Positions 9,742 through 43,965 of a DNA stretch of 53,190 nt are shown here, in pieces (position 1 is the stretch's first letter; the number at the start of each line of letters is the position of its first letter). A model generated the notes under the pieces. The model was not told the origin of the DNA. It worked only from the letters and a program-made list of their open reading frames with translations, and made no database searches. The DNA is from Candidatus Saccharimonadales bacterium (lineage in GTDB: Bacteria; Patescibacteriota; Saccharimonadia; Saccharimonadales; DATKHC01): NCBI GenBank assembly GCA_035510465.1, contig DATKHC010000014.1, positions 1 through 53,190 of the forward strand. The letters are read 5' to 3'. The position numbers and the translations under genes were made by a program.

Positions 9742-9948
9742 TTAATGTTTTCTAGGTTTAACTTCGTTTCGACCTAAGTTTTTCTTAGTCTCTGTAAATA
9801 GGACATGCTTTCGTAGCACTGGATCATACTTCTTGATACTTAACTTATCAGGAGTATTCATCTGATTCTTAGAGGTATAGTAAACTCGGTGTCCTGTTGC
9901 TTCTGAAACTAGTCCGACTAACTTTCTCTTATCGCCTTTTTTTGTCAT
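9742..9948 (-). CDS. rpmG: 50S ribosomal protein L33, Zn-free (C-minus) form
   Basis: [10 protein letters not shown]...[19 protein letters not shown]; no Cys; adjacent to tRNA-Trp. Confidence 0.93.
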
Positions 9949-9979
9949 AACGCTTTCCTTATTCGATTGTTAAAGCCTA

Positions 9980-9999
9980 ACAGATATGTTCTTATCTGT
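9980..9999. other. Inverted repeat ACAGATA-N6-TATCTGT in the tRNA-Thr/rpmG spacer
   Basis: 7-bp stem conserved in the duplicate at 14350-14369 while the loop differs (TGTTCT vs TGAGCT). Confidence 0.65.
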
Positions 10000-10007
10000 A
10001 AATATAA

Positions 10008-10082
10008 TGGAGCCGAAGACGGGGATTGAACCCGTGACCTCGTCATTACCACTGACGCGCTCTGCCACTGAGCTACTTCGGC
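10008..10082 (-). tRNA. trnT: tRNA-Thr(GGT), fully paired copy
   Basis: Acceptor GCCGAAG/CTTCGGC; anticodon arm CGTCA-GTGGTAA-TGACG; CCA end. Confidence 0.92.
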
Positions 10083-10133
10083 TTAAAAGCCATGATTCCT
10101 GATTATTTTACACTACCACAATACTTCAGGATA

Positions 10134-10793
10134 TTAATCCTCGGACAATGGTGCTTCAGGCGGATCTGGCCAACCCTCCCGCATACGTCTATTAAACTCT
10201 TCCTTCTCAAGCGGGATGTCTTTTTTAAGTAACCAGTGATGAGTTATGTCTATAGAGTAAATGGGGTTAACTTCACCTCGTAAAAGTGCAACCAAAGAAT
10301 GTACGTCTTGGTCTGCTCTCAGTAGTTGTCGTACACCAAATACGGAACCCATGGTTGTGCCGACATCTTCGCCAATCCTGGGTCTCTTTGCAGATAGAGC
10401 TATCTCCGCATCTTCTTCATTTCTAAACTCAAACTTATACTCTGATTTCTTACTTCCTGGGGCCCTTCTGGGATGTATGACAGGTATTTTGAGCTCATAC
10501 CCAAGAATGGTCATAAAATCCCTCCAACCCTCAGGAGGATCCAACAAAAGGTCCGCATCTTTAATACAGGGAAAAGTTGCGAAGTGACCTAACAAAACAT
10601 CAAACTGTCTACGATGTCTGTATAACATCTCGGCATCTACCTTAAGCGTTGATTGAACACCAGAGGCAAACGCGAACTCACCCTCCTTGAAAGCTCCGGC
10701 ACTTAAAAAAGCTTCCCATGTTTCTTCAGTGGTTCGCTGGCTATCAAAGCCCGCTTTTTCAAGATCAGCACATACTGGTATTAGATCACTCAT
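10134..10793 (-). CDS. Type I phosphoribosyltransferase, orotate-PRTase (PyrE)-like
   Basis: FAFASGVQSTLKVD resembles the PyrE F.L.SG..S..Y.D motif; PRPP loop RIGEDVGTTMGS. Confidence 0.7.
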   Translation of the reverse strand: MSDLIPVCADLEKAGFDSQRTTEETWEAFLSAGAFKEGEFAFASGVQSTLKVDAEMLYRHRRQFDVLLGHFATFPCIKDADLLLDPPEGWRDFMTILGYELKIPVIHPRRAPGSKKSEYKFEFRNEEDAEIALSAKRPRIGEDVGTTMGSVFGVRQLLRADQDVHSLVALLRGEVNPIYSIDITHHWLLKKDIPLEKEEFNRRMREGWPDPPEAPLSED

Positions 10794-11221
10794 AGATTCC
10801 TTACAAGGTTACAAAATTCTTGAGAAAACTTAAACTTTAAAAGATCTGCTGCTTTGTTCGGCGAAAACCAACCAAACTTATCCTCTCGAATGTCTTTAGC
10901 TAACTCTATCAGTTTCGTATTGGCCACATTCACAGAGTAAACCATAGACACTAGTGGCAAAAGGACGCCATTCACTGGAATCGTTATATTCGTTAAAACT
11001 CCCATTAGTTGTTTGGGTTTGCCAATATAACTAATGTTCAATTCTTCTTTGAGTTCTCTTTTTGGGGTTTGAGTGAACGTTTCACCCGGGTCCATTCTTC
11101 CACCTGGTAAGTCCCAGTGAGAGGGTATATGCCCCCACTCTGGTATGTGGACCATAAAAATTTCGTCTATACCATTTCGGATAAGCCCTTTGATATTAAT
11201 CTGAAATATTTGTTCTGCCAT
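10790..11221 (-). CDS. NUDIX hydrolase
   Basis: WDLPGGRMDPGETFTQTPKRELKEELNI Nudix box. Confidence 0.88.
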   Translation of the reverse strand: MAEQIFQINIKGLIRNGIDEIFMVHIPEWGHIPSHWDLPGGRMDPGETFTQTPKRELKEELNISYIGKPKQLMGVLTNITIPVNGVLLPLVSMVYSVNVANTKLIELAKDIREDKFGWFSPNKAADLLKFKFSQEFCNLVRNL

Positions 11222-11273
11222 TTACGCTAATCGTTATTTTTTATATAAATCTGTATAAGGGGTTAGGATTTTA

Positions 11274-11701
11274 TTAGTCAATTCCAGCATATACAATGCC
11301 ACCTAAATAGCACTCAATTGCTAATCTGCTTGCGTCGAAGTGCGGCTGAGGAAGATCTCTTGGGTTTGACCATAAGATCTCTTCACACTTATCAGGCTCC
11401 AATATTTTCGGTTCTCCGTCGAACACTTCTGCTAATAAAATAATCGATATAAAATGCACTCCTTCGGTTCTAAACGTTTCCAGATTATTAGTAACAGCGA
11501 TTACTCTTGGTTTAACGATAGTTATACCGTGCTCTTCCTCAACTTCGCGAACAGCGCCATCTTCAAACGTTTCGCCAAATTTTAAACTTCCGCCGGAATT
11601 GAATAGAATGGAGCGTGGCTACTCTTTCTTTTACCAATAAGAACTTCGCCCTGCTCGTTTTTTATAATTACACCTAATCCTACTCCGGGCGTTTTAGCCA
11701 T
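11274..11701 (-). pseudogene. NUDIX hydrolase with a one-base frameshift near 11592-11597
   Basis: ATG 11701 gives MAKTPGVGLGVIIKNEQGEVLIGKRKSSHAPFYSIP; adding one base restores GGSLKFGETFEDGAVREVEEEHG, continuing into ORF 11274-11459. Confidence 0.85.
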
Positions 11702-12029
11702 AATGCAATTTGCTTAGTTAAACAACACTGTCTTGAATATATCATTATATCCCGGCTCCTCACTAATTCAGTGCCTGAAACACTTCAATACCTAATCTAC
11801 CGTTATAAGCAGATGGCCTACGCAACGAGTAATTACTTCAAAACTGTCAGTTTGCTTATTACATGGTTCCAAAGTTTACGGAAATGCTTATCAAGCTGCT
11901 TGCTGCTTCATCGCTGTCTACGAAAGCATCTACCGGGCCTAACACGGCATTACTAACGGTGGCCGATTGTTCTTGAGTCAAAGTTATATTATTGTTACGC
12001 AAGCAGACAATCAAATGTGTCTTCTTGAC

Positions 12030-12320
12030 TTACCGGGAATGATCTTCTTTGTGTTTTTCCTGCCACTCCTTGATTTTAGCCAAATCTTTTCCAAGAGCCT
12101 TTGCTACCAACTTCTCAACGATCTCTTTAGCCTTTGACTCATCAACACCCTTCTCGTCGAGAACTAGACGCAGCTTGCTTAGCTTGAATGAGACTTTTTT
12201 AACTGACCAAATTAATGTCTCGTCAATTTTTTCCTCTGGAATACCAAGCTCAACTAACTTCTTTGTCCACTTTGCTTTTTTCTCTTCATCCATTTCTTTC
12301 ATATTATCTTTGTCCCACAT
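12030..12320 (-). CDS. Small highly charged helical protein, hypothetical
   Basis: 96 aa; SD AGGAG; internal repeat LVELGIPEEKIDE / LDEKGVDESKAKE. Confidence 0.65.
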   Translation of the reverse strand: MWDKDNMKEMDEEKKAKWTKKLVELGIPEEKIDETLIWSVKKVSFKLSKLRLVLDEKGVDESKAKEIVEKLVAKALGKDLAKIKEWQEKHKEDHSR

Positions 12321-12408
12321 AATTTCTCCTGTTCTGGTTTATTACTTAACTCACTTAAGTTAACCACGTCTTTCATGCTATTAGCCTGTATAAAAATCAA
12401 AAGTTCTG

Positions 12409-12441
12409 GTGCAGCGTGATGAACGAGGTTAGAGTGCTACT
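12409..12441. repeat. 33-bp repeat / conserved-loop hairpin, copy A
   Basis: GTGCAGCGTGATGAACGAGGTTAGAGTGCTACT; 30/33 identical to 12955-12987. Confidence 0.85.
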
Positions 12442-12449
12442 ACAAACTA

Positions 12450-12941
12450 CTATAGTGGGAGTTCTCTAACTTCACAAAACCTTGGGGTAAACCTTTCACT
12501 TTCGTCCGTATAAACACCAAGTTCTTGGCAAATGGCGGCTATAAGAAAAGCGTGTGTAATCCAAATTTTTTCAATAGGTGGTTTTTCAATTATTGATTTA
12601 GCTGCATTTATAGTTGCTTCTGGAGGACGCCTTGCAGCCAATGCCTCCCGAACTTGCTCATCACTCAACCCACCCTTTTCCTCGTTAAGCTCTGGATATA
12701 TAGATAGTCTCCGAAACCCTGCAATAATTGCTGTTTCTTGTGTGCGCCGCATCATAGTAACGGCCACTGGCTCTGTAGCTACATCTATACCAAACCGCAC
12801 AGCCAATAATCCTCCTAGTTCTGAGGACTGTTCTCTTCCTTTTGGCATTAAAGGAGCTTCAGTATTGCCAAATGCTGGCGTACCATAGTTTTCGTAATTA
12901 TTGGCCTCTGATAGACCATGTCTTGCAACAAGTTTTGACAT
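12450..12941 (-). CDS. Histidine phosphatase (PGM superfamily)
   Basis: LVARHG catalytic motif, RRTQETA, WITH. Confidence 0.85.
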   Translation of the reverse strand: MSKLVARHGLSEANNYENYGTPAFGNTEAPLMPKGREQSSELGGLLAVRFGIDVATEPVAVTMMRRTQETAIIAGFRRLSIYPELNEEKGGLSDEQVREALAARRPPEATINAAKSIIEKPPIEKIWITHAFLIAAICQELGVYTDESERFTPRFCEVRELPL

Positions 12942-12954
12942 ATTACAAATATCT

Positions 12955-12987
12955 GTGCAGCGTGATAAACGAGGTTAGAACGCTACT
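12955..12987. repeat. 33-bp repeat / conserved-loop hairpin, copy B
   Basis: GTGCAGCGTGATAAACGAGGTTAGAACGCTACT; on the minus strand GTAGCGT pairs with ACGCTGC. Confidence 0.85.
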
Positions 12988-13004
12988 GATTAATGAGCAT
13001 ACAA

Positions 13005-13331
13005 TTATAGCTTCTTAAAAAATAGCTTTTTAGATTTCGGGTTGAGCACGGTTGAATTTGTATTGGTTCCAGAATTGCCCCGCCATTCATCCAGTTGTTC
13101 TGTCTCACTTGGAGCGCCAACTATAGAACGAATACGCTGAGGTGTTGTCTCTTCCATAGGGCTGTAGCTAATCTCATCTGTGACAGTTTCCATAACCGCA
13201 TTGAGTACGCCTATTTTTCCACTAGATAAGGCTGTTACTTCATCTAACAGTTCTGGAAAAATCTGTAGCTGCATAGCAAAAGTTCTTGCTGCTTGTTCAA
13301 ACGATAGAACTCGTTGTCTCGCTTGCTCCAT
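13005..13331 (-). CDS. Hypothetical protein (ORFan)
   Basis: 108-aa ORF with its own promoter. Confidence 0.55.
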   Translation of the reverse strand: MEQARQRVLSFEQAARTFAMQLQIFPELLDEVTALSSGKIGVLNAVMETVTDEISYSPMEETTPQRIRSIVGAPSETEQLDEWRGNSGTNTNSTVLNPKSKKLFFKKL

Positions 13332-13340
13332 ATTATCTAT

Positions 13341-13369
13341 ACTGTAGCATATCCGTAACCGCTAGTCAA
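13341..13369 (-). promoter_or_regulatory. Promoter TTGACT-N17-(TGc)TACAGT
   Basis: 9 nt upstream of ATG 13331. Confidence 0.6.
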
Positions 13370-13471
13370 GTTGGTGCTCCTGAATTCTAGCCCGAAACGC
13401 AATTAAAAGAGGACATCTCACTAAGTTCCGTACACTAGGAGTTACTAAGCAACTAGTAAAGGAGAAGTGAA

Positions 13472-13726
13472 ATGTCCCATAGTCATCTTACTCGTGATCA
13501 ACGTAGTGAGCTAGGTATCCTAAAGAGTGCTGGTTACTCACAACAAGATATTGCTCACCTCATAGGTGTCCATCCTAGTACTGTTAGTAGAGAGATAGCT
13601 CGCTGTAGAACAAATCTACAGCTATGCCGATCTACTTTGCTCACCCCTACCATTCATGGAAGAGAGGTACTAACGAGAACACCAATGGCTTACTTAGACA
13701 GTACTTCCCAAAGAGAACAGCCTTAG
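13472..13726 (+). pseudogene. IS30 transposase N-terminal HTH fragment
   Basis: SHLTRDQRSEL...SQQDIAHLIGVHPSTVSREIAR (HTH_38-like); SD AAGGAG. Confidence 0.85.
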
Positions 13727-13848
13727 CTCATGTTACCCAAGGTCAGCTTGACCAAGCAGTTACACTACTTAATACTAGACCCAGGAAACGACTAGGCTAC
13801 CGAACTCCACGAGAAGTCTTCACTAAGTCTAATTGCAATTCGAACTAG
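13624..13848 (+). pseudogene. IS30 transposase C-terminal fragment (different frame)
   Basis: YFAHPYHSWKRGTNENTNGLLRQYFPK...LNTRPRKRLGYRTP. Confidence 0.9.
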
Positions 13849-13972
13849 AATCTTCCGCGTTGCGTGTCCCGCGTTGTAAATCCAATATTCCCAAGTTTAA
13901 TACATATGGCAAGCAAACTGGAAGCGCTAGAGCAGGCTTCAAGATTTTCTTAGTCTTCTTTCCCGAACCCGT

Positions 13973-14168
13973 AAAGATTTCAGCGTCAAGTCCTGACTGT
14001 CGAATGATAGGTCGAAATGTGCCCAGTGGTATTTCTTTTCTTGGAGTTGGCACTATAACAGTTTTTGAATCCTTACGATATTTAGCATGACTGCCTCGTT
14101 GAGATACGAACATAAAACCTTGATGTTCAAGAAGCTAATAATTTTTTTGATGACAGTAGTTTAGACAC
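13973..14168 (-). pseudogene. HicA-family toxin, frameshifted near its 5' end
   Basis: GTG 14168 gives MSKLLSSKK then leaves frame; the other frame has LEHQGFMFVSQRGSHAKYRK...VIVPTPRKEIPLGTF..IIRQSGL. Confidence 0.8.
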
Positions 14169-14250
14169 GTTGCAGACGGAGAGCGTGGACAGTGGGACGC
14201 TTAACGCTAGTAGATGTAGTAGTATCTTGTGGCATATCTTCTAGGTATAG
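14161..14250 (-). pseudogene. Probable 3' remnant of a HicB-like antitoxin
   Basis: LYLEDMPQDTTTSTSVKRPTVHALRLQRV*; the stop overlaps the hicA GTG; LYLE resembles the HicB EAIELYLE motif (inference). Confidence 0.5.
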
Positions 14251-14318
14251 TAAACTCGATGTCCACTTTCCTTGGACACCAAACCTACTAATTTTCTCTT
14301 ATCACCTTTTTTAGCCAT
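14241..14318 (-). pseudogene. rpmG: Truncated second copy of rpmG (25 codons, then TAG)
   Basis: [25 protein letters not shown] vs intact [28 protein letters not shown]. Confidence 0.92.
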
Positions 14319-14349
14319 AACAACCTACGTCTTTAATTGTTAAAGGTTA

Positions 14350-14369
14350 ACAGATATGAGCTTATCTGT
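14350..14369. other. Inverted repeat ACAGATA-N6-TATCTGT, second copy
   Basis: Same position relative to tRNA-Thr and rpmG as 9980-9999. Confidence 0.65.
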
Positions 14370-14377
14370 AAATAAAA

Positions 14378-14452
14378 TGGAGTCGTTGACGAGGATTGAA
14401 CTCGTGACCCCCTCCTTACCATGGAGGTGCTCTACCACTGAGCTACAACTGC
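14378..14452 (-). tRNA. trnT: tRNA-Thr(GGT), second copy with two acceptor-stem mismatches
   Basis: Anticodon arm CCTCC-ATGGTAA-GGAGG; acceptor 5' GCAGTTG vs 3' CAACGAC leaves C2:A71 and A3:G70 unpaired. Confidence 0.85.
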
Positions 14453-14647
14453 ATACTAAGAAAGACTTATGATCATTCATAATAGTATACTTCTTGAGAA
14501 TTATACTTAAAACTCTCTTGTAAGGAAGAAGTTTGAGGCAAGCAAGGCGAACAATATGATTAACCTTGTAGAATTTCTATTATGTTTAGTATAGAATAGC
14601 CATAAGCACGCTAATACTAAGCAATAGACTAGTATTTAGAGACAATA

Positions 14648-15889
14648 ATGCAAATTAGAGACAAGATAAAAAAGTTTAAACCGAGTAAAAAGCTATCAAG
14701 CCTTCGATTTTCCACTGGAATTGTTGTTTGTCTACTAGCAGCTTTAATAGGAGCCAGATTATTATTTGGTGCTCATGCAGAAGGACCATATGTGTCTTTT
14801 GAGGCAGAGAGTGGCACCGTTGTAAGTCCGGCAGTAATCTACAAGGATCCCACTGCAAGCAATGGTGAAGCTGTACAATTTGGTAGCAATTCTACTACTA
14901 GTGGTCGAGTTCCGTATGACTGGCCGTTCACCTGGGACTCAATTTGGAATATACCCATTAGCTCTGGCGCCCAGTACGTATCAGCCGGCATAATTGCCAA
15001 TGGGATAGATCAAGAATCGACTTCCGGTGCCGATGACTATGACTCTGTTAACCCGACTTTTCCGGTTAAGACTCTAACTAATGCTCAACTGGCTAACGGC
15101 ACTACCGGTCCGGCGCAGGTCTATTCCGATCCTAGTATGACTGCAGGTGGAGTCTGGGACGACTGTGCGGCATTTCTCGGTACAGATAATATGACCGTTT
15201 ATCAGGGTCAAACCTTGCAGCTAACAGCTGGAGGTAATCCAGGTTTTGGCGGCCAAGCCGATTCTACCCAGCCGCCAGTTACTTTGGAAAGCGCCGGAAC
15301 GGCAGGTTGCCACGGTGGTTCTGGCTTATCTGGGCTAGGAGGGACTTTAACAAACGCTGACTTCTCCTCATCGAGCCCAATCCAACATGCACTTAAAATA
15401 GCCATAGATTGTAATGAAAGCTGTTCCGACAAGGGGAGTGGATACACCTGGCCAGCCACCTCCGCTGATTATCAATACAACGTCTCTGGCACCGCTAATT
15501 ACTACGGCGGAACCAATACAAATGTTCATATGGGATCGTTACTGGCCTTGCCGCCAAGCATCAACCCCTCCTCCTTTTCTAATGCCATAGTCCAAAAATT
15601 AGCTACGGCGACACAAGACTACGGTGCTTATATCGTAGATAATACCGCTAACGGTAGTTTGATGCATGAATCATTTATTACAAACTACAATGCCAACTCA
15701 TACCTGTTGAGCCTAGGTACATCAAACTCGCAAATTATCCAACTAATTGAAGATTTGGAAGTGGTTAATAATAACACCTCATCTACGCCTGGAGGCGGGG
15801 CAATTGGCTCCTCTCGTTATGCGCCATATGCCCCGGCTTTCAATGACGGCACGGATGCACCACCCTCAGTAACAGTTATTTCCCCATAA
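14648..15889 (+). CDS. Large secreted/anchored protein: N-terminal TM/signal, short CBM-like FEAE motif, conserved domain of unknown function
   Basis: 413 aa; YVSFEAESGT...TASNGEAVQF; WPFTWDSIWNIPI; GGSGLSGLGG; QDYGAYIVD; Ser/Thr/Gly/Asn-rich; opposite strand to its neighbours. Confidence 0.8.
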   Translation: MQIRDKIKKFKPSKKLSSLRFSTGIVVCLLAALIGARLLFGAHAEGPYVSFEAESGTVVSPAVIYKDPTASNGEAVQFGSNSTTSGRVPYDWPFTWDSIWNIPISSGAQYVSAGIIANGIDQESTSGADDYDSVNPTFPVKTLTNAQLANGTTGPAQVYSDPSMTAGGVWDDCAAFLGTDNMTVYQGQTLQLTAGGNPGFGGQADSTQPPVTLESAGTAGCHGGSGLSGLGGTLTNADFSSSSPIQHALKIAIDCNESCSDKGSGYTWPATSADYQYNVSGTANYYGGTNTNVHMGSLLALPPSINPSSFSNAIVQKLATATQDYGAYIVDNTANGSLMHESFITNYNANSYLLSLGTSNSQIIQLIEDLEVVNNNTSSTPGGGAIGSSRYAPYAPAFNDGTDAPPSVTVISP

Positions 15890-16024
15890 CCCATCTCCTA
15901 CAAATTGGAAATTGTGACAGCCTTAACTCTTTCATAAGTCTATTTAAGATGTGAGACCGAGACGGTGATAACATTCTTTTATTTTAGTCTTTATTCGGAA
16001 TACGGTTCTAGCGTACCTCATGCT

Positions 16025-16378
16025 CTAATCAGGTTGATTTGGGTCATGAAGTGGAGGAGTAAATTTGACTTGCTCTAAATCACTTAGATCCAGAAGTGTT
16101 GCGAGTCTGCCAATTTTAAATAGCGGGCGTCTATATATTGCTCCTTCAAATCCATCTCTAATCAAAGCGAAGTGCCCTAACGTAAAACCTAAAGAAGATG
16201 AGAGAAGAGTCGCTGGGTCTACACCAGACCTTTCAGCTTCCTGGAGAATTGCGTCAGTCAGTTCACCATCGGGAATTGTAAAATGAAGACCAGAGGGTCC
16301 GTCGCTACCATCCTCTGTCACTTGGACTTGTTCCCTGTAGTCTTTCATGTATCGTATGTTGTCAGGTGTTTCGGCCAT
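16025..16378 (-). CDS. Hypothetical protein (ORFan)
   Basis: 117-aa ORF directly downstream of tRNA-Tyr with its own promoter. Confidence 0.55.
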   Translation of the reverse strand: MAETPDNIRYMKDYREQVQVTEDGSDGPSGLHFTIPDGELTDAILQEAERSGVDPATLLSSSLGFTLGHFALIRDGFEGAIYRRPLFKIGRLATLLDLSDLEQVKFTPPLHDPNQPD

Positions 16379-16387
16379 TATAAGAAC

Positions 16388-16417
16388 ATACTACATCATC
16401 ATTCGTCAGTGTGTCAA
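16388..16417 (-). promoter_or_regulatory. Promoter TTGACA-N18-TAGTAT
   Basis: 9 nt upstream of ATG 16378. Confidence 0.6.
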
Positions 16418-16421
16418 ATAT

Positions 16422-16508
16422 TGGTGCAGGGAGAGGGAGTCGAACCCCCGAAGACATAAAGTCGTCTGATTTACAGTCAGATGCGTTTGACCACTTCGCT
16501 ATCCCTGC
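16422..16508 (-). tRNA. trnY: tRNA-Tyr(GTA)
   Basis: Acceptor GCAGGGA/TCCCTGC, arm TCTGA-CTGTAAA-TCAGA, long variable arm, ACCA end. Confidence 0.95.
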
Positions 16509-16517
16509 ATACTTACA

Positions 16518-16593
16518 TGGAGCCACCTGACGGATTCGAACCGACGACATCCACTTTACAAAAGTGGCGCTCTACCAGCTGAGCTAAGGTGGC
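16518..16593 (-). tRNA. trnT: tRNA-Thr(TGT)
   Basis: Acceptor GCCACCT/AGGTGGC, arm CCACT-TTTGTAA-AGTGG, CCA end. Confidence 0.95.
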
Positions 16594-16632
16594 ATTTTAA
16601 TACAATCAGACGAAGTTTAACAGATGAGAGAG

Positions 16633-17292: not shown

Positions 17293-17310
17293 ATACTGCC
17301 GATTAGTATA

Positions 17311-18189
17311 CTACAAATTTAAGAATAAATTAGTAAGCGTTAGTTTGATGTTAACGTTAGTATTTAACATTATTTCAGCGTCATTTAAGGCATTTAAACG
17401 GTGATACCAGGCTTTAGCAGACTTACTCGAAGATCCTTGTATAGATTGCTTCATGGCGGCATGAGTTACACGTTTCAGAGCGTAGAGTCGATCACTCAAA
17501 TGTTCTTTATCTTTTACCATCTCATCTATCATCGCGAGTTTACTCAGTCGTGTGCTTTTTAGGATTTTCTTAGCATCTTCAACGTAACCTACTAGCTCTG
17601 ATTCGCTATCACTAGAGAGAATGCTAGACATTAAACCCATATTCCCATTACTGAGAAGGTACGTCTTTACTATGTCGTCTTTTGATTTACCAAGTTTAGA
17701 GAAATGCTCTACTGCTAACTCCTGGCTAGGTCTGGAGATAAATAGTTTTTGGGACCTAGATAGGATGGTTGGTCTAAGCGAATTCTCTGAGCTGGCAGTT
17801 AGTATTATCAGACTGTTTAGTGGTGGTTCTTCTAGAAGTTTAAGTAGTGAGTTTTGAGCCTCGTCTGAGATATTATCAGCATGAATGGTGGCAACTCTAT
17901 TAATTTTAGCTGCACCTGTACTTTTGAGTCTAAAAAACGTCTTGAGTTCTCTGATCTCATCAATTCCAACTGAATTTTTGCTATCACCTATGGACTTGAT
18001 GTTGCCAATCTGTTCTGAGGGATTCTGGTTGGCTCCAATGAGCTCCTTGGCTATTAGTTTTGCTACAGAGGTTCTCCCGCTACCAACCGGACCAAGTATT
18101 ATTAGGGCGTGTGACGGAGATTTAATGAACAGATTCACCGATTTCCGGGTTGAACTAGATATTAGGATGTCATTATTTGTCATCGGCAA
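17311..18189 (-). CDS. holB: DNA polymerase III delta' subunit lacking the Zn module
   Basis: GPVGSGRT, VGIDEIRE, AQNSLLKLLEEPP, LRPTILSRSQ. Confidence 0.9.
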   Translation of the reverse strand: MPMTNNDILISSSTRKSVNLFIKSPSHALIILGPVGSGRTSVAKLIAKELIGANQNPSEQIGNIKSIGDSKNSVGIDEIRELKTFFRLKSTGAAKINRVATIHADNISDEAQNSLLKLLEEPPLNSLIILTASSENSLRPTILSRSQKLFISRPSQELAVEHFSKLGKSKDDIVKTYLLSNGNMGLMSSILSSDSESELVGYVEDAKKILKSTRLSKLAMIDEMVKDKEHLSDRLYALKRVTHAAMKQSIQGSSSKSAKAWYHRLNALNDAEIMLNTNVNIKLTLTNLFLNL

Positions 18190-19039: not shown

Positions 19040-19060
19040 TGCAGTAGCCTCCTAAAACCG

Positions 19061-22385: not shown

Positions 22386-22997
22386 TTAACGTGAGTAATA
22401 CTCAACTATTAGTTGCTCATTGATATCGGGCTCCGCATCCTCTCTTTTGGGTAATCCGCTAACGCTTACCTTAAACTTTTTACGATCTACTGATATCCAT
22501 TTGGGGATTTCACTTGGAGCTGGGCTTAGTTCATCTATCTCTTTGAAGTAGCTGTTTGCCTTACTAGTTGGCTTAAGTTCAACTACATCGCCTGGTTTCA
22601 AACGAATTGAAGGTACATTAACTCTTACGTCGTTAACCTTAAAGTGTCCATGACTAGATAGCTGACGGGATGCTCGGCGGCTTTTAGCGAAACCTGCCCT
22701 ATAAATAACGCTATCTAAACGTCTTTCTAGGTATTCAAGTAACAGTTCACCAGTTGGACCCGGTTTACTTAGTGCTTCACTCATTAAATTAGCGAATTGT
22801 TTCTCAAGTAGTCCATACAAGCGTTTAACCTTCTGTTTTTCTCTCAGTTGCTGAGCATATTGGCTAGGCGTACTTGGACGTGATTTTGGACCGCCTGGAG
22901 GTGAGGATCGCTTAATCAGAACTTTATGGGCTCTTGGGTGAAGAGCATAGCCTTCACGTCGACTCATTTTTACAATTGAACTTGTATCTCGTGCCAT
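22386..22997 (-). CDS. rpsD: 30S ribosomal protein S4 (no Zn cysteines)
   Basis: QLREKQK, LERRLD, INEQLIVEYYSR. Confidence 0.97.
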   Translation of the reverse strand: MARDTSSIVKMSRREGYALHPRAHKVLIKRSSPPGGPKSRPSTPSQYAQQLREKQKVKRLYGLLEKQFANLMSEALSKPGPTGELLLEYLERRLDSVIYRAGFAKSRRASRQLSSHGHFKVNDVRVNVPSIRLKPGDVVELKPTSKANSYFKEIDELSPAPSEIPKWISVDRKKFKVSVSGLPKREDAEPDINEQLIVEYYSR

Positions 22998-23894: not shown

Positions 23895-24011
23895 CTACCC
23901 CTGTCTCTGCTTATGGCGAGGTTTAAGTTTATTGATTATATAAACCCGTCCTTTACGACGGACGATCTTATCATCTGGACTTATTTTCTTGACGCTAGCA
24001 CGAACTTTCAT
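23895..24011 (-). CDS. rpmJ: 50S ribosomal protein L36, Zn-free form (below the ORF-track length cutoff)
   Basis: Manual translation: [38 protein letters not shown]. Confidence 0.96.
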
Positions 24012-28337: not shown

Positions 28338-28607
28338 CTACCAGCTAGACTTAGTAACTCCCGGTATCTCACCTTTACTAGCATGTTCTCTGAAAGATAT
28401 TCTGGATAGGCCGAATTGACGCATATACGCCCTTGGACGACCCGTCTCACTGCATCTGTTTTTCCAACGGGTTGGACTGGAGTTTCTAGGAAGCAAATGT
28501 AACGCTTCGTGATCACCTTCAGTTTTTAATTGCTCACGCTTAGCGGCATACTTCGTAATCATTTTCTGACGCTTTAAGTCTCTTGCAACTGCTGATTTCT
28601 TAGCCAT
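28338..28607 (-). CDS. rpsN: 30S ribosomal protein S14, 89-aa Zn-free type
   Basis: [21 protein letters not shown]...GLSRISFRE...KSSW; only one Cys. Confidence 0.96.
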
Positions 28608-33957: not shown

Positions 33958-33958
33958 C

Positions 33959-34722: not shown

Positions 34723-34743
34723 TTGTTGTTTTTATTACTTAGG

Positions 34744-35085: not shown

Positions 35086-35099
35086 TGACTGTTTCGATC

Positions 35100-36281: not shown

Positions 36282-36348
36282 TTGGGTCTGACTCCTTTTA
36301 TAAATTAATTAACATGAGCAACAATAGCTCAAAAGAGTTATAACCAAT

Positions 36349-36377
36349 ATTCTATCTGATAAATAGCGTTTTGTAAA
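36349..36377 (-). promoter_or_regulatory. tuf promoter TTTACA-N17-TAGAAT
   Basis: Followed by a leader with SD AAGGAG. Confidence 0.65.
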
Positions 36378-36448
36378 CAGTTGTTTCAGAGTAAAATTCA
36401 GATTTCTTTTTATCTATATTTTAGGATTCTCATAACTCATCGTGAACA

Positions 36449-36805: not shown

Positions 36806-36864
36806 ATCGGGGTATTTTAACCCTGATAGATATAACCTGCAAGCATGTGCGGGATCTAAACTGC

Positions 36865-38952
36865 CTATTTTGCATTTTTTGAGATAATAGACTCAGCCAC
36901 GTTCGTAGGCACGTCGGAGTATCGATCTAGCTCCATAGAAGAGCTGGCTCTACCTTGAGTCATACTTCTAAGATTAGTTGTATAACCAAACATTTCTCCG
37001 AGTGGTACAAGGGCTGTTATCTCTTTTATTCCCGGAGATAAATCAACCATAGTTTCTATTCGACCACGCTTACTGTTTAAATCACCGATTACGTCACCCA
37101 TGAATGATTCTGGAGTAACAACAACTACTTTCATTATTGGTTCGAGTAGAACTGGACTAGCTTTTTTAACAGCTGCTTGAATAGCCATAGATCCAGCAAT
37201 TGAAAATGCTAACTCAGATGAGTCTACGTCGTGGTAACTTCCGTCGTATAGCTCGGCTTTAACATCAACAACTGGATAACCAGCGATCACTCCGTTAGCA
37301 AGCGCTTCTTCAATACCCTTTCTGACGGGAGTTATATATTCATGGGGGACTACACCACCTTTTATGCTATTAACGAATTCAAATCCCTTACCTTGCTCAT
37401 TTTGAAAGACCCTAAGCCAAACATGACCATATTGTCCCCTTCCACCTGTTTGACGGATAAACTTGCCTTCCGCCTCAACCCCGTCTTTTCGAATTGTTTC
37501 ACGGTAAGCAACTTGAGGCTCTCCGACATTTGCCTCAACGCTAAACTCACGTTTCATTCGATCAACGATAATTTCTAGGTGCAATTCACCCATCCCGCTA
37601 ATAATCGTTTGACCAGTTTCGTGATCTACTCGAATTCTGAAAGTAGGGTCCTCTTCACCTAAGCGCTGAAGTGCAAGACCCAGTTTTTCCTGGTCTGATT
37701 TAGTCTTGGGCTCAATAGCAATTGAAACTGGCGGTTCTGGGAACGTTATGCTCTCTAAAATAATAGGGTTTGATTGGTCGCAAAGAGTATTCCCTGTAGT
37801 AGTACCTTTTAAGCCAACAATGGCTGCTATGTCACCTGTACCAACCTCCGACACATCGGTTCGGTCATTAGCCTGCATCCTAACTATTCGACCAATGCGT
37901 TCTTTTTCACCAGTGGAACTGTTTAAGATATAGCTACCTGATTTAACCTTTCCAGAATATACTCTGAAAAAGGCTAGCTTACCGACAAAGGGGTCGGTGG
38001 CAATCTTAAAGGCTAACGCCGAGAAAGCCTGCGTCTCTTCGGGTTTTCGCTCTATTTCATCACCGGTTTTAGGTTGCGTACCCCAAGTTGACCCACGATC
38101 AATCGGACTTGGTAGAAAATCTACTACTGCATCGAGTAGTTTTTCGACTATTACGCCTCTGCCATCCCCGCCACTTACAGCAAAGAATTTACCACTCAGG
38201 ACCGATGCCCGGACAGCAGAACGAACCTCATCTTCTGAAAGTCCTTCTTCCCCAACTTCGAAATACTTCTCCAGTAGTTTCTCGTCTTCAGTTATTGCAT
38301 TTTCAATTAGAAGTGATCGATACTTCTTAACCTGGTCAGCCATATCAGCTGGGATTTCACCTTCACTTACCTCATGATCTGAAAAATCCTTATAGGTGTA
38401 TGACTTTAGGCTAATCAGATCGACCACACCGGATACTGACTGCTCAAAACCGATCGGCAAATGAATGGGGAACGCCTGTTTTGACAAACGCTGATGGATA
38501 GATTCAAGTGATTTGTAGAAATCACCGCCAGTTTGATTTATCTTGTTAATGAAACAGATTCTAGGAACACGGTATTTATCTGCTTGTCGCCAAACAGTCT
38601 CGGATTGGCTCTCAACGCCCATTTTGCCATCAAAAACAACTACAGCACCGTCAAGTACTCGAAGTGAGCGTTCAACCTCTACCGTAAAGTCAATGTGTCC
38701 AGGGGTATCGATTATGTTGACTTTGTGATTTTTCCAATAACAAGTAACAGCCGCACTGGTAATCGTAATTCCACGTTCACGTTCCTGTTCCATCCAGTCG
38801 GTAGTAGTTTCACCCTCATGAACCGCGCCGATCTTATGTTTTAAGCCAGTACGATACAGGATGCCTTCGGTAGTAGTAGTTTTACCGGCATCAATGTGCG
38901 CAATAATTCCAATATTCCGCAACTTATCTAATTGATATCTAGTTTCCGCCAC
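36865..38952 (-). CDS. fusA: Elongation factor G (GTG 38952 preferred; ORF track start 38967)
   Basis: [28 protein letters not shown]; AAGGA upstream of the GTG. Confidence 0.98.
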
Positions 38953-39223
38953 CTGCAATTCCTTCAACTATCATTTTTTGAATAGATAATCCATCATGAC
39001 CACAACCTGACCTCCTGAGCAATGCTTCAGCTTCTTGTGCTGATTGTGTGACAAGTGTTCCTGCTTGTCTCAAAGACTCTTCTTGAGGTCGACCGTCGAA
39101 AGAATCTCCTTCTGCGCCTACCAAAACTCTCATACCGCGTTCCTCGCCTATAACTGTATTTAGAACAGCAAAACACATATCTGGCTGCTCACATGAATCG
39201 CAAGCTTCAAACCATGCACTCAT
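38939..39223 (-). CDS. Putative Cys-containing hypothetical protein filling the rpsG-fusA gap
   Basis: ATG 4 nt after the rpsG stop; 94 aa [18 protein letters not shown]...RSGCGHDG; 3' end overlaps the fusA start. Confidence 0.45.
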
Positions 39224-39227
39224 ACAA

Positions 39228-39707
39228 TTAATACCTAGCAAAGTGAGCAAATGCCCTGTTAGCATCTGCCATTCTATGCGTATCTTCTTTTTTCTTAACT
39301 GCACTGCCGGCGCCACCATAAGCATCGACTAACTCTGCGGCAATTCTTTTATCCGTGCTAATTCCGCCACGAGAACGTACTGCAGCCACAAACCACATAG
39401 TAGTGAGGTGAACTTGTCTTTGACCTTTTACTTCAAAAGGTATCTGATAATTAGCTCCCCCGACACGTCTTGAACGGGTTTCGGTGTGTGGTCGAATATT
39501 ATTCATGGCTCTATCGAAAACTTCGATTGGGTTTTGAACTTTTAGTTTGTCGGCAGCTTGTTGCATACCAGCATACATTAACTTCTCTGCCATCTGTTTT
39601 TTGCCACCTAGCATAACACGGTTAATGACTCTTTGGACTGCGACTGAATTATAGAGTCTATCAGCTGGGATTGGTCGAGTTAGTGATTTTGTCTTCTTCC
39701 TCGGCAT
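39228..39707 (-). CDS. rpsG: 30S ribosomal protein S7
   Basis: RRVGGANYQIP, HRMADANRAFAH. Confidence 0.98.
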   Translation of the reverse strand: MPRKKTKSLTRPIPADRLYNSVAVQRVINRVMLGGKKQMAEKLMYAGMQQAADKLKVQNPIEVFDRAMNNIRPHTETRSRRVGGANYQIPFEVKGQRQVHLTTMWFVAAVRSRGGISTDKRIAAELVDAYGGAGSAVKKKEDTHRMADANRAFAHFARY

Positions 39708-39709
39708 TA

Positions 39710-40120
39710 CTATGACCCTTTCTTGGTCCCATATTTACTACGTCCATGAGTTCGTTTGCTTACGCCAAGCAGATCAAGATGACCCCGGACGATATGGTAA
39801 CGGACACCTGGTAAGTCTTTAACTCGGCCGCCTCTTACTAAAACAACTGCGTGTTCTTGAAGATTGTGACCTTCACCACCGATGTAAGCCCATACTTCTT
39901 GACCATTAGTTAGGCGAACACGGGCTACTTTTCGAAGAGCTGAGTTAGGTTTCTTTGGAGTCTTTGTGGTTACTTTTATACATACTCCTCTTTTAAATGG
40001 AGCTGGCCGCTCATAGGATTGGTTTTTTATATTGTTAACAACTTTAAGCATAGCCGGTGACTTAGACTTTGTGGTCACCTGGTGCCTCGGCTTGCGTACT
40101 AGTTGATTAATTGTTGGCAT
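39710..40120 (-). CDS. rpsL: 30S ribosomal protein S12
   Basis: [21 protein letters not shown]. Confidence 0.98.
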
Positions 40121-40140
40121 AGTAGATTAGTTAACCAGAT

Positions 40141-43100
40141 TTACTCCTCAGCGTCAACGCTGTCGGACTCCTTAGAATAGGGCGAATGGCCATAACCAGT
40201 TCCAACTGGTATAAGCCGACCCAAAATAACGTTCTCTTTTAAGCCAAACAAATGGTCAACTTTACCGCTTGTTGCAGCAGCAATTAGAACCCTTGTTGTG
40301 TCCTGGAAACTAGCTGAGCTTAAGAATGAGTCGGTTGTTAGGCTTGCTTTGGTAATACCAAGTAGTAATTGGCTATACTTGATCGGTTTCTTATTCCCGC
40401 GAACCAGTTGATCATTAACCTCGACTACCGACAATTTACTGGCAATATCTCCTGTAACGAACTCACTATCTCCAGCTTCCTCAATTTGAACTCGACTAAA
40501 CATCTGTCTAATTATGATTTCCAAATGTTTATCGGCGATGCTCTGACCTTGTGAGGCAAAGATACGCAAGATTTCATTCATTATGTAGCGCTGAGTTGCT
40601 TCAATGCCCTTTAATGCCATCAAATCATGAAGGTTAATAGAACCATTGGTAAGCATCTGTCCTTTTTCGACCTGCCCACCGTCTTTAACCAATATCTGAC
40701 GATAGCCAGGGATATCATGTCTAACTACACTCTGTTCTGAGCGTACAATGACTGCCTCTTTATCAGTGAACTCAACTATTCCAGAAACAGGAGCGAGTAG
40801 CGGCTCTATTGTGCCTTTAGCTTTGGCAGAAGCTAGGATGTCGCCAACTGCCACTAAACTCCCGCCATCTAGTTGTGGTTTACGGTTTTTAAGAGGAAGT
40901 TTGGTTGATTTGCCTTTATCGTCGAGGGCTGTAATCTGAACGACATAGTGATCAGCTTCCTCCCATACATTGACGGTTCCGCTGATATCGGCAAGCACTG
41001 CTTGTCCTTTTGGTGCTCTAACTTCAAACAACTCTTCAACTCGAGGTAGACCAGTCGTAATATCCTCGCCAGCTACACCACCCGCATGGAAGGTCTTTAG
41101 GGTAAGCTGCGTACCTGGTTCACCGATACTTTGAGCAGCAATTACGCCAACAGGGTGATGTGACGCAACTAGCTCGCCGGTTGCTGGGTCAATCCCGTAG
41201 GACTTCCTGGAAACTCCACGGACACTAGTAGCTGATAGTGCACTTAAGATACGTACTCCATCAATTGATTTATCGGCATCAATTTTCTCAGCAACTTCTT
41301 TTGTTATTAGCTCGCCTGACTTTATTAGTTTATTAACTGGTCCGGCTGTGAAACGTCCTTCGAGTCGAGACGCGTAGCTAACACCGACTTCTTTGGCATC
41401 GCCACGGTAGACCGGGAAACCTGGATCATCATCTTGATCGTCAATCGTGAACACATCTTGAGACACGTCAACCAGTCGTCTGGTCAAATAACCTGAGTCG
41501 GCAGTCTTTAGAGCTGTGTCAATTAATCCTTTTCGAGCTCCACGGGCAGCTGTGAAGTATTCCAGTGGAGTTAAACCTTGCTTATAGTTACTCCTAATTG
41601 GCAGCTCAATGGCTCGACCAGTTGTGTCGGCCTGAATTCCAACTGTACCGACGGTCATTTTTACCTGTCCAATACTGCCTCTAGCACCTGACAACACTGC
41701 TATCGACATCGATGAATCCTGCTTAGTAAATTGGTTGACTAGTAACTCTTGAATTTTGTTATCAGCTTCCATCCAGATCTCAACGGTTAGTCGATATCGT
41801 TCGGAATTATTGATAAGCCCTTCGTTATACTGATCAGCAACAACTTTAGCCTTTTCTTCAGCAGCGGTAATTTCTTCATCCATACCGTCGATATCGTTGA
41901 AGTCACCCATACCCATAGATAGTCCTGATACGGTTGCGTAATTAAAGCCGAGTTGCATTAGTTTGTCAGCGATTTCAGCAGCTTGGGCTTGGCCATACAT
42001 AGCGTAAGCAGTTGCCATAGCGCTTTGGAGTTTCTTCTTAGACATGGATTCATCTAAGAATGGGAAATCATCTGGGAAGATCTCATTGAACAAGAATCGT
42101 CCAAGTGTGCTCTCGTGCTTTGAACCCCGGAAATTTATTCTTATCCTGCTATGCAGAGTAATAATTCCGGCGTCGTAAGCCATTAAGGCTTCATGAAGAG
42201 ACGAGTAAGGACGGATTTTATTCATTTCTTCAGTCGATCGGTCATATGTTAAGTAATAACAACCGAGCACGATATCTTGTTCGATGTGTAGTATTGGCGA
42301 ACCGTCAGCTGGTTTCAGCAAGTTCTTGTTACTAGCCATGATTTCTCTGGCTTCTTTTTGTGCATCATCAGAAAGAGGTAAATGAACTGCCATTTGGTCA
42401 CCATCGAAATCTGCGTTAAAGCCTTTACATACCAATGGATGTAGTTGAATAGCTTTCCCCTCGATCAGAACCGGCTGGAAGGCTTGGATACTTAGTCTGT
42501 GAAGACTTGGAGCTCGGTTAAGAAGGACATACTTACCTTTAATTACTTCATCAAGTGCGTCCCAAACCGCTGTTTCACCCAGTTCGATCATTCGAGTGGC
42601 TGAGCGTATATTGTGAGCCTGGTCATTATGGATCAAGTGTCCAATTACAAATGGTTTGAACAGTTCAAGCGCCATCATCTTCGGGAGACCACATTGGTAA
42701 ATTCGAAGCTCAGGTCCTGAAACAATAACTGATCGGCCCGAGTAATCTACTCTTTTTCCTAACAAGTTCTGCCTGAATCGACCCTGTTTACCCTTTAGCA
42801 TGTCGGATAGTGACTTAAGTCTGCGGTGTTGGCCAGTTGCGGCAACGGCTCGACCTGAACGAGTACTATTGTTATCAATCAAAGCATCGACTGCTTCTTG
42901 AAGCATTCGCTGTTCGTTTCGTCTAATAACCTCAGGAGCTTTCAACTCAATTAACTTCTTTAGTCGGTTGTTTCGGTTGATTACGCGGCGATATAGATCA
43001 TTTAGGTCGGAGGTAGCAAATCGGCCACCAGTTAACTGAACCATTGGACGCAGATCTGGGGGAATCACTGGAAGTACTGTAAAGCACATACTACCTGGCT

Positions 43101-43965
43101 TAATGCCAGCTCGCTGCATTGATTCAAGAAGTCGCAGTCGCTTCATTAGTTTCTTTTTACGCTGACCTTTTGCCTCTTCAGATTCTTTGGATAGTTGTTC
43201 GATTAAAGTGCTTAGATTAATTTCATCAAGAAGTTCCTTGATTGCGACTCCACCCATACCAACTTTTATAAGCGAGGATACTTCCTCAGGAAGGAACCGG
43301 TAATCGTTTTCAGAAATCAGATTTAGTTTTTCGAGCGCACTTAGCTGATCTTTGACAGCTGCGTAGTTAGTAGTCAGCTCTTCAATTTCTTTAGTTTGCA
43401 TCTCTGCTAGAGCTTTAATGTTAGCGTTTTCAGCTTTTGCTTCAGATTCAAAACGCAGTTTGATAGCTTCTTTAGCAGCATTAAACTCAGCTTCTTTCTC
43501 AGCAATCATTTGGTCACGCTTTTCACGATCAACCTTGGTGATTATGTAAGCTGCGAAATAAACTACTCGCTCTAAATTCTTAACTGTCATTCCAAGAAGC
43601 AGTCCAATTGCGGAAGGAGTTCCACGCAGGAACCAAATGTGCGCAACTGGAGTAGCTAGATTAATGTGGCCCATTCGCTCACGTCTAACGATAGACTTGG
43701 TAACCACTTCACCGTTCTTATCGACAGCCGCTTCACGGCTTCTAATACCTTTATATTTGGCATCGTGAGGATTGATGTCTTTAACGGGACCGAAAATTCG
43801 CTCACAGAAAAGACCATCTCGCTCAGGTTTTTGAGTTCTATAGTTAATAGTCTCGGGTTTAGTTACCTCACCATAACTCCACTCCAAAATATCCTCAGGG
43901 CCTGCTACCGCTAATCGAACAGCGTCGAATTCGGCAATATTTGTTCCGGTATTGTAATTTCTCAC
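40141..43965 (-). CDS. rpoC: RNA polymerase beta' subunit lacking all Zn-ligand cysteines (GTG start overlapping the rpoB TGA)
   Basis: [39 protein letters not shown]. Confidence 0.99.

What the first reader, a model, noticed from the sequence alone, without database searches (positions are those of the whole stretch)
9742..43965. Candidate system: zinc-independent transcription, translation and replication machinery
In one window, RNA polymerase beta' (8/8 Zn ligands lost), clamp-loader delta' (module deleted) and L33/L36/S4/S14 all lack structural zinc, while a catalytic HExxH site (YgjP-like) is kept. Independent losses in three machines imply selection to drop structural Zn-thiolate sites. 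Possible causes are zinc scarcity on a host surface, oxidative stress, or cysteine auxotrophy. It may be a Saccharimonadia-wide trait. I cannot verify from here whether the Zn-free beta' has already been reported.
Basis: partly seen in the sequence, partly recalled or inferred. Interest (0 to 1): 0.85.

Follow-up and report, generated by a model that had tools for sequence, protein, structure and literature searches.

The report
Zinc-site purge in Saccharimonadales core machinery
This Saccharibacteria (TM7) genome, like its whole order, has replaced the cysteine zinc sites of RNA polymerase, primase, clamp loader, RecR, DNA ligase and the ribosomal proteins. It keeps zinc sites in many other proteins, so this is a real, stepwise lineage trend and not a discrete gene system.

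Summary
Observation confirmed and extended. The RNA polymerase beta' subunit (window 40141-43965, minus strand) lacks all eight Zn ligands with no indel. L33, L36, S4 and HolB have no Cys, and S14 keeps one of four.

Elsewhere in the same 1.07 Mb genome, DnaG, DnaX, RecR, LigA, TopA, SecA, L31, L28 and S18 are also Cys-site-free. No C+ paralogue exists for the six families searched (L36, L33, S14, L31, L28, S18).

DnaJ, UvrA, PriA, RadA, IleRS, NrdR (two copies), Fur (two copies), MsrB, Fpg, PilD and others keep CxxC pairs. A Fur-family gene sits next to znuABC-like genes.

Comparison across the class:
- Beta' (both sites) and RecR are Zn-less in every genome of the window's own order that was read (59 and 15), with 120 of 120 closest protein clusters agreeing for beta'. 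They are intact in all sampled sister orders (26 and 14 genomes).
- DnaX and HolB were lost earlier.
- DnaG and S14 were lost at least twice, and LigA at least three times or by transfer.
- S4 is C- class-wide.

Non-ligand cysteines of beta' are retained. The remodelled Zn-less ZBD is as conserved as the Zn form (0.89 against 0.67 for the whole protein).

The trait belongs to the order (named Saccharimonadales in record titles), not to all Saccharimonadia. The driver, whether zinc economy, thiolate oxidation or drift, is unresolved. Six literature searches found no prior report.

The parts
40141..43965 (-). rpoC, RNA polymerase beta' (1274 aa). Both Zn sites lack all ligands and the catalytic NADFDGDQM motif is intact.
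   Evidence: Pfam Rpb1 domains 1-5. Alignment to PDB beta' chains. Sequence. Single copy in the genome.
43696..43782 (-). Zn-less ZBD core (residues 62-90), [29 protein letters not shown]. The former ligands are now P66, D68, V81 and N84.
   Evidence: Within the order, mean pairwise identity of the ZBD (residues 55-100) is 0.89 and of this core 0.865, against 0.67 for the whole protein. 120 of 120 closest 90%-identity clusters have no Cys here.
41191..41454 (-). Former second Zn site of beta' (residues 838-925). The ligand positions are now Q844, A912, S919 and S922.
   Evidence: Some relatives in the order keep single relic Cys at the C814, C888 or C898 positions.
9742..9948 (-). rpmG, ribosomal protein L33, C- form (68 aa, no Cys).
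   Evidence: Pfam PF00471, sequence. tblastn finds no C+ paralogue in the genome.
23895..24011 (-). rpmJ, ribosomal protein L36, C- form (38 aa, no Cys).
   Evidence: Pfam PF00444. C- in 14 of 15 genomes of the order, C+ in all 9 sister-order genomes where it was found. No C+ copy in the genome.
22386..22997 (-). rpsD, ribosomal protein S4, non-zinc form (203 aa, no Cys).
   Evidence: Pfam PF00163 and PF01479. The sister orders are also C-, so this is not specific to the lineage.
28338..28607 (-). rpsN, ribosomal protein S14, long C- form (89 aa, one of four Cys left).
   Evidence: Pfam PF00253. All 15 genomes of the order and 5 genomes of one sister clade have the 89-aa C- form. 9 other sister-order genomes have the 61-aa CxxC...CxxC form.
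17311..18189 (-). holB, clamp-loader delta' (292 aa, no Cys). The Zn module is absent.
   Evidence: Pfam PF13177. The module C...CxxC is present in sister-order genomes G005, G025 and G058, partly present in G061, and absent in the order and in G001, G002, G007 and G052.
5751..6485 (-). YgjP-like metallopeptidase with an intact HExxH motif (catalytic Zn kept). It lies outside the stated range.
   Evidence: Pfam PF01863, E 1.8e-39. HELTH motif.

Best explanation
The window shows one local view of a proteome-level evolutionary trend in Saccharibacteria. Structural Zn(Cys)4 or CHC2 sites of core information-processing proteins were replaced, step by step, by metal-free versions of the same domains.

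Order of events:
- In the class, DnaX and HolB lost their Zn modules first.
- DnaG, S14 and LigA lost theirs repeatedly.
- On the stem of the window's order (Saccharimonadales by record titles), RNA polymerase beta' lost both sites together with RecR.
- L36 is C- in 14 of 15 genomes of the order.

The domains were remodelled and then fixed, not deleted. This is shown by the roughly 15 coordinated substitutions in the beta' ZBD, its high conservation afterwards, and the DnaG domain that still matches the CHC2 family. It is inferred that these proteins fold and work without zinc.

The most likely reading, also inferred, is directional selection. It made the essential, constitutively needed machines independent of zinc supply, of oxidation-prone Zn-thiolates, or of both. 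That would be a constitutive, lineage-wide analogue of the Zur-controlled C- paralogue response. Zinc sites remain where the metal site is itself functional or the protein is conditionally used (DnaJ, UvrA, PriA, RadA, NrdR, Fur, Fpg, MsrB, IleRS).
For: Losses in this genome.

Order-specific and complete for beta':
- 59 genomes of the order from 27 families are Zn-less, against 26 RpoC sequences from the other orders with eight of eight Cys.
- 16 named Saccharibacteria, Saccharimonas or Saccharimonadales MAGs have no Cys, and the 63 other loci whose ZBD could be read have four.
- Of the 150 best 50%-identity representatives, only P0001-P0004 lack Zn1 among the sequences that cover the site.
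- 120 of 120 closest clusters are Zn-less.

Distribution of the other losses:
- RecR is co-distributed with beta': 15 of 15 against 0 of 14.
- Losses are nested or parallel for DnaX, HolB, DnaG, LigA, L36 and S14.
- They were mapped on an RpoC tree and a seven-protein tree. The order is sister to G001, G002 and G007 with 100% UFBoot.

Other support:
- Ligand-specific: four non-ligand Cys columns of beta' are kept (0.97, 0.97, 0.77, 0.80), and total Cys is about 5 against 12-13.
- Purifying selection on the remodelled ZBD: 0.89 against 0.67 for the whole protein.
- DnaG still matches PF01807 at 95.5 bits without any ligand.
- No C+ paralogues in the genome for the six families searched.
- A Fur-family gene lies divergent to ZnuA, an ATPase and an ABC-3 permease.
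Against: - No metal measurement or structure exists. Two AlphaFold runs gave low confidence in the ZBD (pLDDT about 50-64).
- Many Zn sites are kept, including the two of moderately abundant DnaJ. Several of the proteins that lost sites are low-copy (DnaG, DnaX, RecR, LigA), which a pure zinc-quota argument does not predict.
- A heme-copper oxidase, used as a proxy for oxygen exposure, occurs in Zn-keeping sister families as well as in the order and is absent from many members of the order.
- Relic Cys at Zn2 and the mosaic of LigA and L36 states look like decay or gene exchange rather than a clean sweep.
- The seven-protein tree includes the proteins whose characters are mapped on it.
Confidence: 0.6

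Rival explanations
1. Neutral decay. In small-population, reduced-genome epibionts the Zn sites were lost by drift and patched by compensatory substitutions, with no adaptive value attached to zinc or thiols.
For: - Relic single Cys at Zn2 in many members of the order.
- Patchy LigA and L36 states.
- No correlation with the terminal oxidase.
- Many Zn sites persist.
- Zn2 alone is also missing in four unrelated representative clusters.
Against: - The other Patescibacteria loci read and the sister orders keep all ZBD Cys. So do all other representatives that cover the site, apart from one single-residue exception (P0146, CCCT).
- Losses recur in the same class in several proteins.
- The remodelled ZBD is among the most conserved segments.
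Confidence: 0.25
2. Ligand swap rather than metal loss. The remodelled domains still bind a metal through oxygen or nitrogen ligands. In the beta' ZBD these would be D68, H67, E78, D82 and E86, several of which are new and nearly invariant.
For: D68, E78 and D82 are invariant in the order. H67 (24 of 29) and E86 (25 of 29) are new acidic or His residues that replace C, Y and V.
Against: - Two of the four former ligand positions are now Pro and Val, which cannot coordinate a metal.
- H67 is N or Y in 5 of 29 genomes.
- RecR and DnaX show deletion or replacement of the whole module.
Confidence: 0.08
3. General cysteine avoidance (cysteine auxotrophy or cost) removes Cys everywhere, and the Zn sites are collateral damage.
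For: The proteome has 0.70% Cys. RpoB has one Cys and SecA and DnaX have none.
Against: - Non-ligand Cys of beta' are retained and one new Cys was gained.
- 35 ORFs keep paired CxxC motifs.
- From general knowledge, lack of amino-acid synthesis is shared by the CPR groups that keep the sites.
Confidence: 0.04
4. Artefact: a pseudogene, a mis-assembled or contaminated MAG, or a second Zn-bearing rpoC elsewhere in the genome.
For: None found.
Against: - The 1274-codon frame is open and has all Rpb1 domains and the catalytic motif.
- One rpoC per genome.
- The same state occurs in 59 independent genomes and 120 protein clusters.
- The search tool lists the genome at 96.65% completeness and 0.05% contamination.
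Confidence: 0.01

Closest known systems
C- (zinc-independent) forms of ribosomal proteins L31, L33, L36, S14, S4, L28, L32 and S18, and the Zur-regulated zinc-sparing response. Sources: Makarova et al. 2001 (own knowledge); S4 Zn and non-Zn forms, PMC3087516; mycobacterial AltRPs, PMC5912738; Zur regulon review, PMC6103462.
   Same: The same r-protein families, with the CxxC pairs replaced. A Fur-family regulator sits next to znuABC-like genes.
   Different: Here the C- forms are the only copies. They are therefore constitutive, not a paralogue switched on under zinc starvation. The same replacement also extends to non-ribosomal core enzymes.
Canonical bacterial RNA polymerase beta' with two Cys4 zinc sites (E. 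coli C70/C72/C85/C88 and C814/C888/C895/C898; own knowledge, solved structures such as 8i23 and 7l7b).
   Same: Full domain architecture, the catalytic NADFDGDQM motif and a ZBD of the same length.
   Different: All eight ligands are replaced and about 15 coordinated substitutions have accumulated in the ZBD. The state is fixed in a whole order.
Zinc-independent paralogues of non-ribosomal Zn proteins in Zur regulons, for example DksA2 and FolE2 (own knowledge).
   Same: A Cys4 structural site is replaced by a metal-free fold that keeps function.
   Different: Those are duplicated, regulated back-ups in single species. Here the sole orthologue itself has changed, in DnaG, DnaX, HolB, RecR, LigA and RpoC.

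Membership tests
Bacterial RNA polymerase beta' (RpoC) | Rpb1 domains 1-5 and the catalytic NADFDGD motif | tested here: met
   Pfam PF04997, PF00623, PF04983, PF05000 and PF04998. '[14 protein letters not shown]' is in the sequence.
Bacterial RNA polymerase beta' (RpoC) | N-terminal Cys4 zinc-binding domain (Zn1) | tested here: not met
   The ligand positions are P, D, V and N. The domain length is kept.
Bacterial RNA polymerase beta' (RpoC) | Second Cys4 site (Zn2) | tested here: not met
   The ligand positions are Q, A, S and S.
C- ribosomal protein forms (L33, L36, S14, S4, L31, L28, S18) | Member of the r-protein family but without the CxxC pairs | tested here: met
   Pfam hits. Cys counts are 0-1.
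Zur-regulated zinc-sparing paralogue system | C- copy coexists with a C+ copy | tested here: not met
   tblastn of the whole genome finds single copies only, plus one truncated rpmG 5' fragment.
Zur-regulated zinc-sparing paralogue system | Zur regulator and a high-affinity Zn uptake system present | tested here: inconclusive
   A FUR-family gene lies divergent to ZnuA (PF01297), an ATPase and ABC-3 (PF00950) at C10:10627-13693. Metal specificity (Zn or Mn) and Zur boxes were not tested.
DnaG primase CHC2 zinc finger (PF01807) | Domain homology | tested here: met
   PF01807 at 95.5 bits over residues 3-93.
DnaG primase CHC2 zinc finger (PF01807) | C-H-C-C ligands | tested here: not met
   'GLSPFNSEKTPSF...WHDFSSGKGG' gives S, N, D and S.
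NAD-dependent DNA ligase LigA | Cys4 zinc finger between the OB and HhH domains (PF03119) | tested here: not met
   No PF03119 hit and one Cys in 678 aa. The aligned segment lacks CxxC...C.....C.
RecR | Cys4 zinc finger (CxxC...CxxC) between HhH and Toprim | tested here: not met
   Only the first Cys is left and there is no zinc-finger Pfam hit.

The most novel reading that the evidence does not exclude
Saccharimonadales, the order that includes the cultivable host-associated TM7 epibionts, transcribe, prime, load clamps, seal nicks and translate with machines that contain no structural zinc. This was reached by repeated directional replacement of Zn-thiolate sites under selection imposed by their epibiotic niche, such as zinc withholding or oxidant and electrophile stress at the host surface. 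Their RNA polymerase would be a natural zinc-free bacterial RNA polymerase; no report of one was found in six literature searches.
Probability: 0.5. Interest if true: 0.85.

Novelty: new variant of a known kind. Interest (0 to 1): 0.72.

Why it matters
The two zinc sites of beta' are treated as near-universal and important for folding, assembly, termination and antitermination (own knowledge). A whole order that has dispensed with both, and with the zinc sites of primase, clamp loader, RecR and often ligase, is a natural experiment. It shows what these sites are really for and how a Zn ribbon can be converted to a metal-free fold.

The result gives testable predictions for metal content and structure of RNAP from cultivable TM7 co-cultures. 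It supplies a clean molecular synapomorphy for the order. It also offers a model for how metal economy or redox robustness shapes minimal proteomes.

Tried and rejected
- AlphaFold2 of beta' residues 1-200 (17-sequence alignment) and 1-420 (43-sequence alignment). ZBD pLDDT was about 50-64 and the overall means were 52.7 and 57.7. This is too poor to say whether the ribbon fold persists, so no fold search was run.
- Six full-text literature searches for a Zn-less beta' or a zinc-site loss in Saccharibacteria or CPR. No report was found. One search returned only background on C- r-proteins and Zur. One further search was rejected for syntax.
- Oxygen-exposure proxy. Heme-copper oxidase subunit I occurs in 111 genomes of the order and 29 of other orders, mainly the Zn-keeping families f33, f38 and f46. 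There is no simple correlation.
- General Cys depletion was rejected.
- A second rpoC, or C+ r-protein paralogues in the genome: none found.
- Names for the Zn2-less or divergent representative clusters: the look-up returned no taxon names.
- L32 was not located by pattern search, so its state is unknown.
- L33 in sister orders, and retention of DnaJ, UvrA and PriA sites across the order, were not surveyed.


Full report
**1. What the window is**

The window is contig C14 of a 1.07 Mb, 24-contig genome with about 42% GC. The search tool lists it at 96.65% completeness and 0.05% contamination.

The stated range carries the rpoB-rpoC genes, the large ribosomal-protein cluster with secY, infA and rpoA, plus holB and tRNA genes, nearly all on the minus strand.

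Close relatives are deposited as Candidatus Saccharibacteria, Saccharimonas or Saccharimonadales MAGs.

**2.

Alignment of RpoC (40141-43965, minus strand) to solved beta' chains shows every Zn1 ligand replaced: P66, D68, V81 and N84, with no indel. Every Zn2 ligand is replaced too: Q844, A912, S919 and S922. The catalytic NADFDGDQM motif and all Rpb1 domains are intact.

- L33, L36, S4 and HolB have no Cys.
- S14 is the 89-aa long form with one of four Cys left.
- The HExxH protein is a YgjP-like peptidase at 5751-6485, outside the given range.

**3. The whole genome gives a mixed picture**

A census of 1271 long ORFs gives 0.70% Cys and 35 ORFs with two or more CxxC motifs.

Sites that are kept:
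- DnaJ (PF00684), PriA (PF18319), RadA (PF18073), NrdR in two copies (PF22811), Fpg (PF06827), MsrB, PilD, UvrA, IleRS, two Fur-family proteins, the NrdJ C-terminus and a GspE-type ATPase.
- By inspection only, the catalytic Zn residues of CysRS, ThrRS and AlaRS.

Sites that are lost:
- DnaG still matches the CHC2 domain at 95.5 bits, but its ligands are now S, N, D and S.
- DnaX has no Cys.
- RecR has one Cys and no zinc-finger hit.
- LigA has one Cys and no PF03119 hit.
- TopA has Toprim_C repeats instead of zinc ribbons.
- SecA has no Cys.
- L31, L28 and S18 are C- forms.

tblastn with L36, L33, S14, L31, L28 and S18 finds no C+ paralogue anywhere in the genome.

A Fur-family gene lies divergent to ZnuA, an ATPase and an ABC-3 permease at C10:10627-13693.

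DnaG is lost. PriA, DnaJ, UvrA and IleRS are kept.

**4. How far the beta' state reaches**

- Among the 150 best 50%-identity representatives out of 1.84 billion proteins, Zn1 is CCCC in every sequence that covers the site, apart from one CCCT. The only Zn-less exceptions are the four nearest (P0001-P0004). P0118, which starts after Zn1, also lacks the last three Zn2 ligands.
- The last three Zn2 ligands are also missing in four other representative clusters that keep Zn1.
- In a 401-genome sample of the class, the window's order comprises families f1-f28.
- All 59 RpoC sequences read from that order, covering 27 families, are Zn-less. Their consensus is [25 protein letters not shown].
- All 26 RpoC sequences read from the other orders of the class keep eight of eight Cys.
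- Named loci agree. 16 Saccharibacteria or Saccharimonadales MAGs have no Cys. The 63 other loci whose ZBD could be read, which include other 'Saccharibacteria', other Patescibacteria and Chloroflexota, have four.
- 120 of 120 closest 90%-identity clusters have no Cys.

The trait is thus a synapomorphy of the order, not of the class.

**5. Selection and specificity**

- Four non-ligand Cys columns of beta' are retained in the order (0.97, 0.97, 0.77, 0.80) and one new Cys was gained. The total drops from about 12-13 to about 5, which is essentially the eight ligands. The loss therefore targets the metal sites and not cysteine as such.
- The remodelled ZBD differs from the sister-order ZBD at about 15 positions. 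Mean pairwise identity within the order is 0.89, against 0.67 for the whole protein. The Zn-bearing ZBD of the sister orders gives 0.86 against 0.64.
- The Zn2 segments are no less conserved than in the sister orders. Several lineages keep single relic Cys there.

**6. Are the losses correlated?**

The same 15 genomes of the order and 15 genomes of other orders were read for six more proteins.

| Protein | Own order | Other orders |
|---|---|---|
| RecR C4 | lost in 15 of 15 | kept in 14 of 14 |
| DnaX Zn module | absent in all | absent in G001, G002, G007 and in G003, G010, G011, G028, G032; kept in 7 genomes of families f33-f46 |
| HolB Zn module | absent in all read | similar to DnaX |
| DnaG ligands | lost in all read | lost in G003, G010, G011, G028, G032; kept elsewhere |
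| S14 | 89-aa C- form in all | the same split as DnaG |
| L36 | C- in 14 of 15 (G341 keeps C+) | C+ in all 9 found |
| LigA | mosaic, four genomes keep C4 | some kept; G005 and G001 carry the same Zn-less type as the order at 58-59% identity; a different deletion type in six others |
| S4 | C- | C- |

An RpoC tree and a seven-protein IQ-TREE (3469 columns) both place G001, G002 and G007 as sister to the order, with support 1.0 and 100% UFBoot. The G003, G010, G011, G028, G032 clade lies outside.

It follows that:
- RpoC (both sites) and RecR were lost once, on the order stem.
- DnaX and HolB were lost earlier.
- DnaG and S14 were lost at least twice, or exchanged.
- LigA was lost at least three times, or exchanged.

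Caveat: the concatenated tree uses the very proteins whose characters are mapped on it.

**7. Causes**

- Cysteine economy is disfavoured.
- Oxygen exposure was tested with a proxy. A heme-copper oxidase subunit I occurs in 111 genomes of the order and 29 of other orders. Most of the latter belong to the Zn-keeping families, and many members of the order lack it. The proxy does not track the losses.
- Zinc economy fits three facts: the znuABC-like locus, the ribosome and RNAP being the largest structural zinc pools (own knowledge), and the constitutive C- r-proteins. It does not explain loss in low-copy DnaG, DnaX, RecR and LigA, nor retention in DnaJ.
- Drift alone does not explain why the other Patescibacteria read and all other representatives keep the beta' sites, nor the recurrence within one class.

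I rate directional selection for metal-free or thiolate-free essential machinery at 0.6, drift at 0.25, ligand swap at 0.08, and the remainder lower.

**8. Structure**

Two AlphaFold2 runs on N-terminal fragments gave low confidence for the ZBD. That the Zn-less ZBD keeps its fold is therefore inferred from conservation and unchanged length only.

**9. Novelty**

C- r-proteins and Zur-controlled zinc-independent paralogues are long known (PMC3087516, PMC5912738, PMC6103462; Makarova 2001 from own knowledge). Six full-text searches found no report of a Zn-less beta', DnaG, RecR or LigA in Saccharibacteria.

Earlier notes of this scan on other Saccharibacteria genomes describe the same state. 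They are not independent evidence. My data agree with those that place the origin at the order and that describe stepwise loss. My data contradict the suggestion that the whole class might be affected.

**10. Verdict**

This is a new variant of a known kind: zinc-independent versions of zinc proteins, here extended to RNA polymerase and replisome parts and fixed in a whole order. Interest is 0.72.

Noticed in passing
window 9867-10107 and 14237-14477, enclosing 10108-14236: A 241-nt direct repeat at 76% identity. It duplicates tRNA-Thr(GGT) and the 5' end of rpmG; the truncated copy reads '[25 protein letters not shown]'. The repeat brackets a segment of about 4.1 kb that holds small ORFs and a short ORF resembling a transposase helix-turn-helix fragment. 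It looks like an old integration at the tRNA-Thr/rpmG site.
   Followed up: partly
window 43339-43536 (beta' residues about 144-209): A lineage-specific insertion of about 65 aa in beta', just after the ZBD/zipper region. It is absent from the clostridial beta' structures it was aligned to and is predicted as a long helical hairpin with pLDDT 80-90.
   Followed up: no
P0041, P0047, P0051, P0086: Four other 50%-identity representative beta' clusters keep the Zn1 Cys4 but lack the last three Zn2 ligands. Loss of Zn2 alone therefore has precedents outside this lineage. The look-up gave no taxon names.
   Followed up: partly
L205 (G005), L206 (G001) against genome contig C21:50337-52373: The Zn-less LigA type 'EL.RQYPELEF.RP.GE.VYR' is shared between the order and two genomes of other orders at 58-59% identity. 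That is higher than for Zn-bearing LigA of closer relatives, which suggests lateral transfer of a Zn-less allele.
   Followed up: partly
G341 (family f26): L296, L207: One nested member of the order keeps a C+ L36 (CTKC...C...H) and a Cys4 LigA while lacking the RpoC, RecR, DnaG, DnaX and S14 sites. This is either retention of ancestral alleles or re-acquisition.
   Followed up: no
genome contig C21:16734-18731 (outside the window): A heme-copper oxidase subunit I gene. It is patchily distributed in the class, in 140 of 401 genomes.
   Followed up: partly
genome contigs C7:2267-3166, C8:21465-22328, C15:10089-10979, C18:4919-5806 (outside the window): Four paralogous proteins of about 290 aa. 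Each has an N-terminal CxxC...CxxC ribbon, and by eye a transposase-like remainder. Mobile-element proteins in this genome keep their zinc ribbons. Not checked against Pfam.
   Followed up: no
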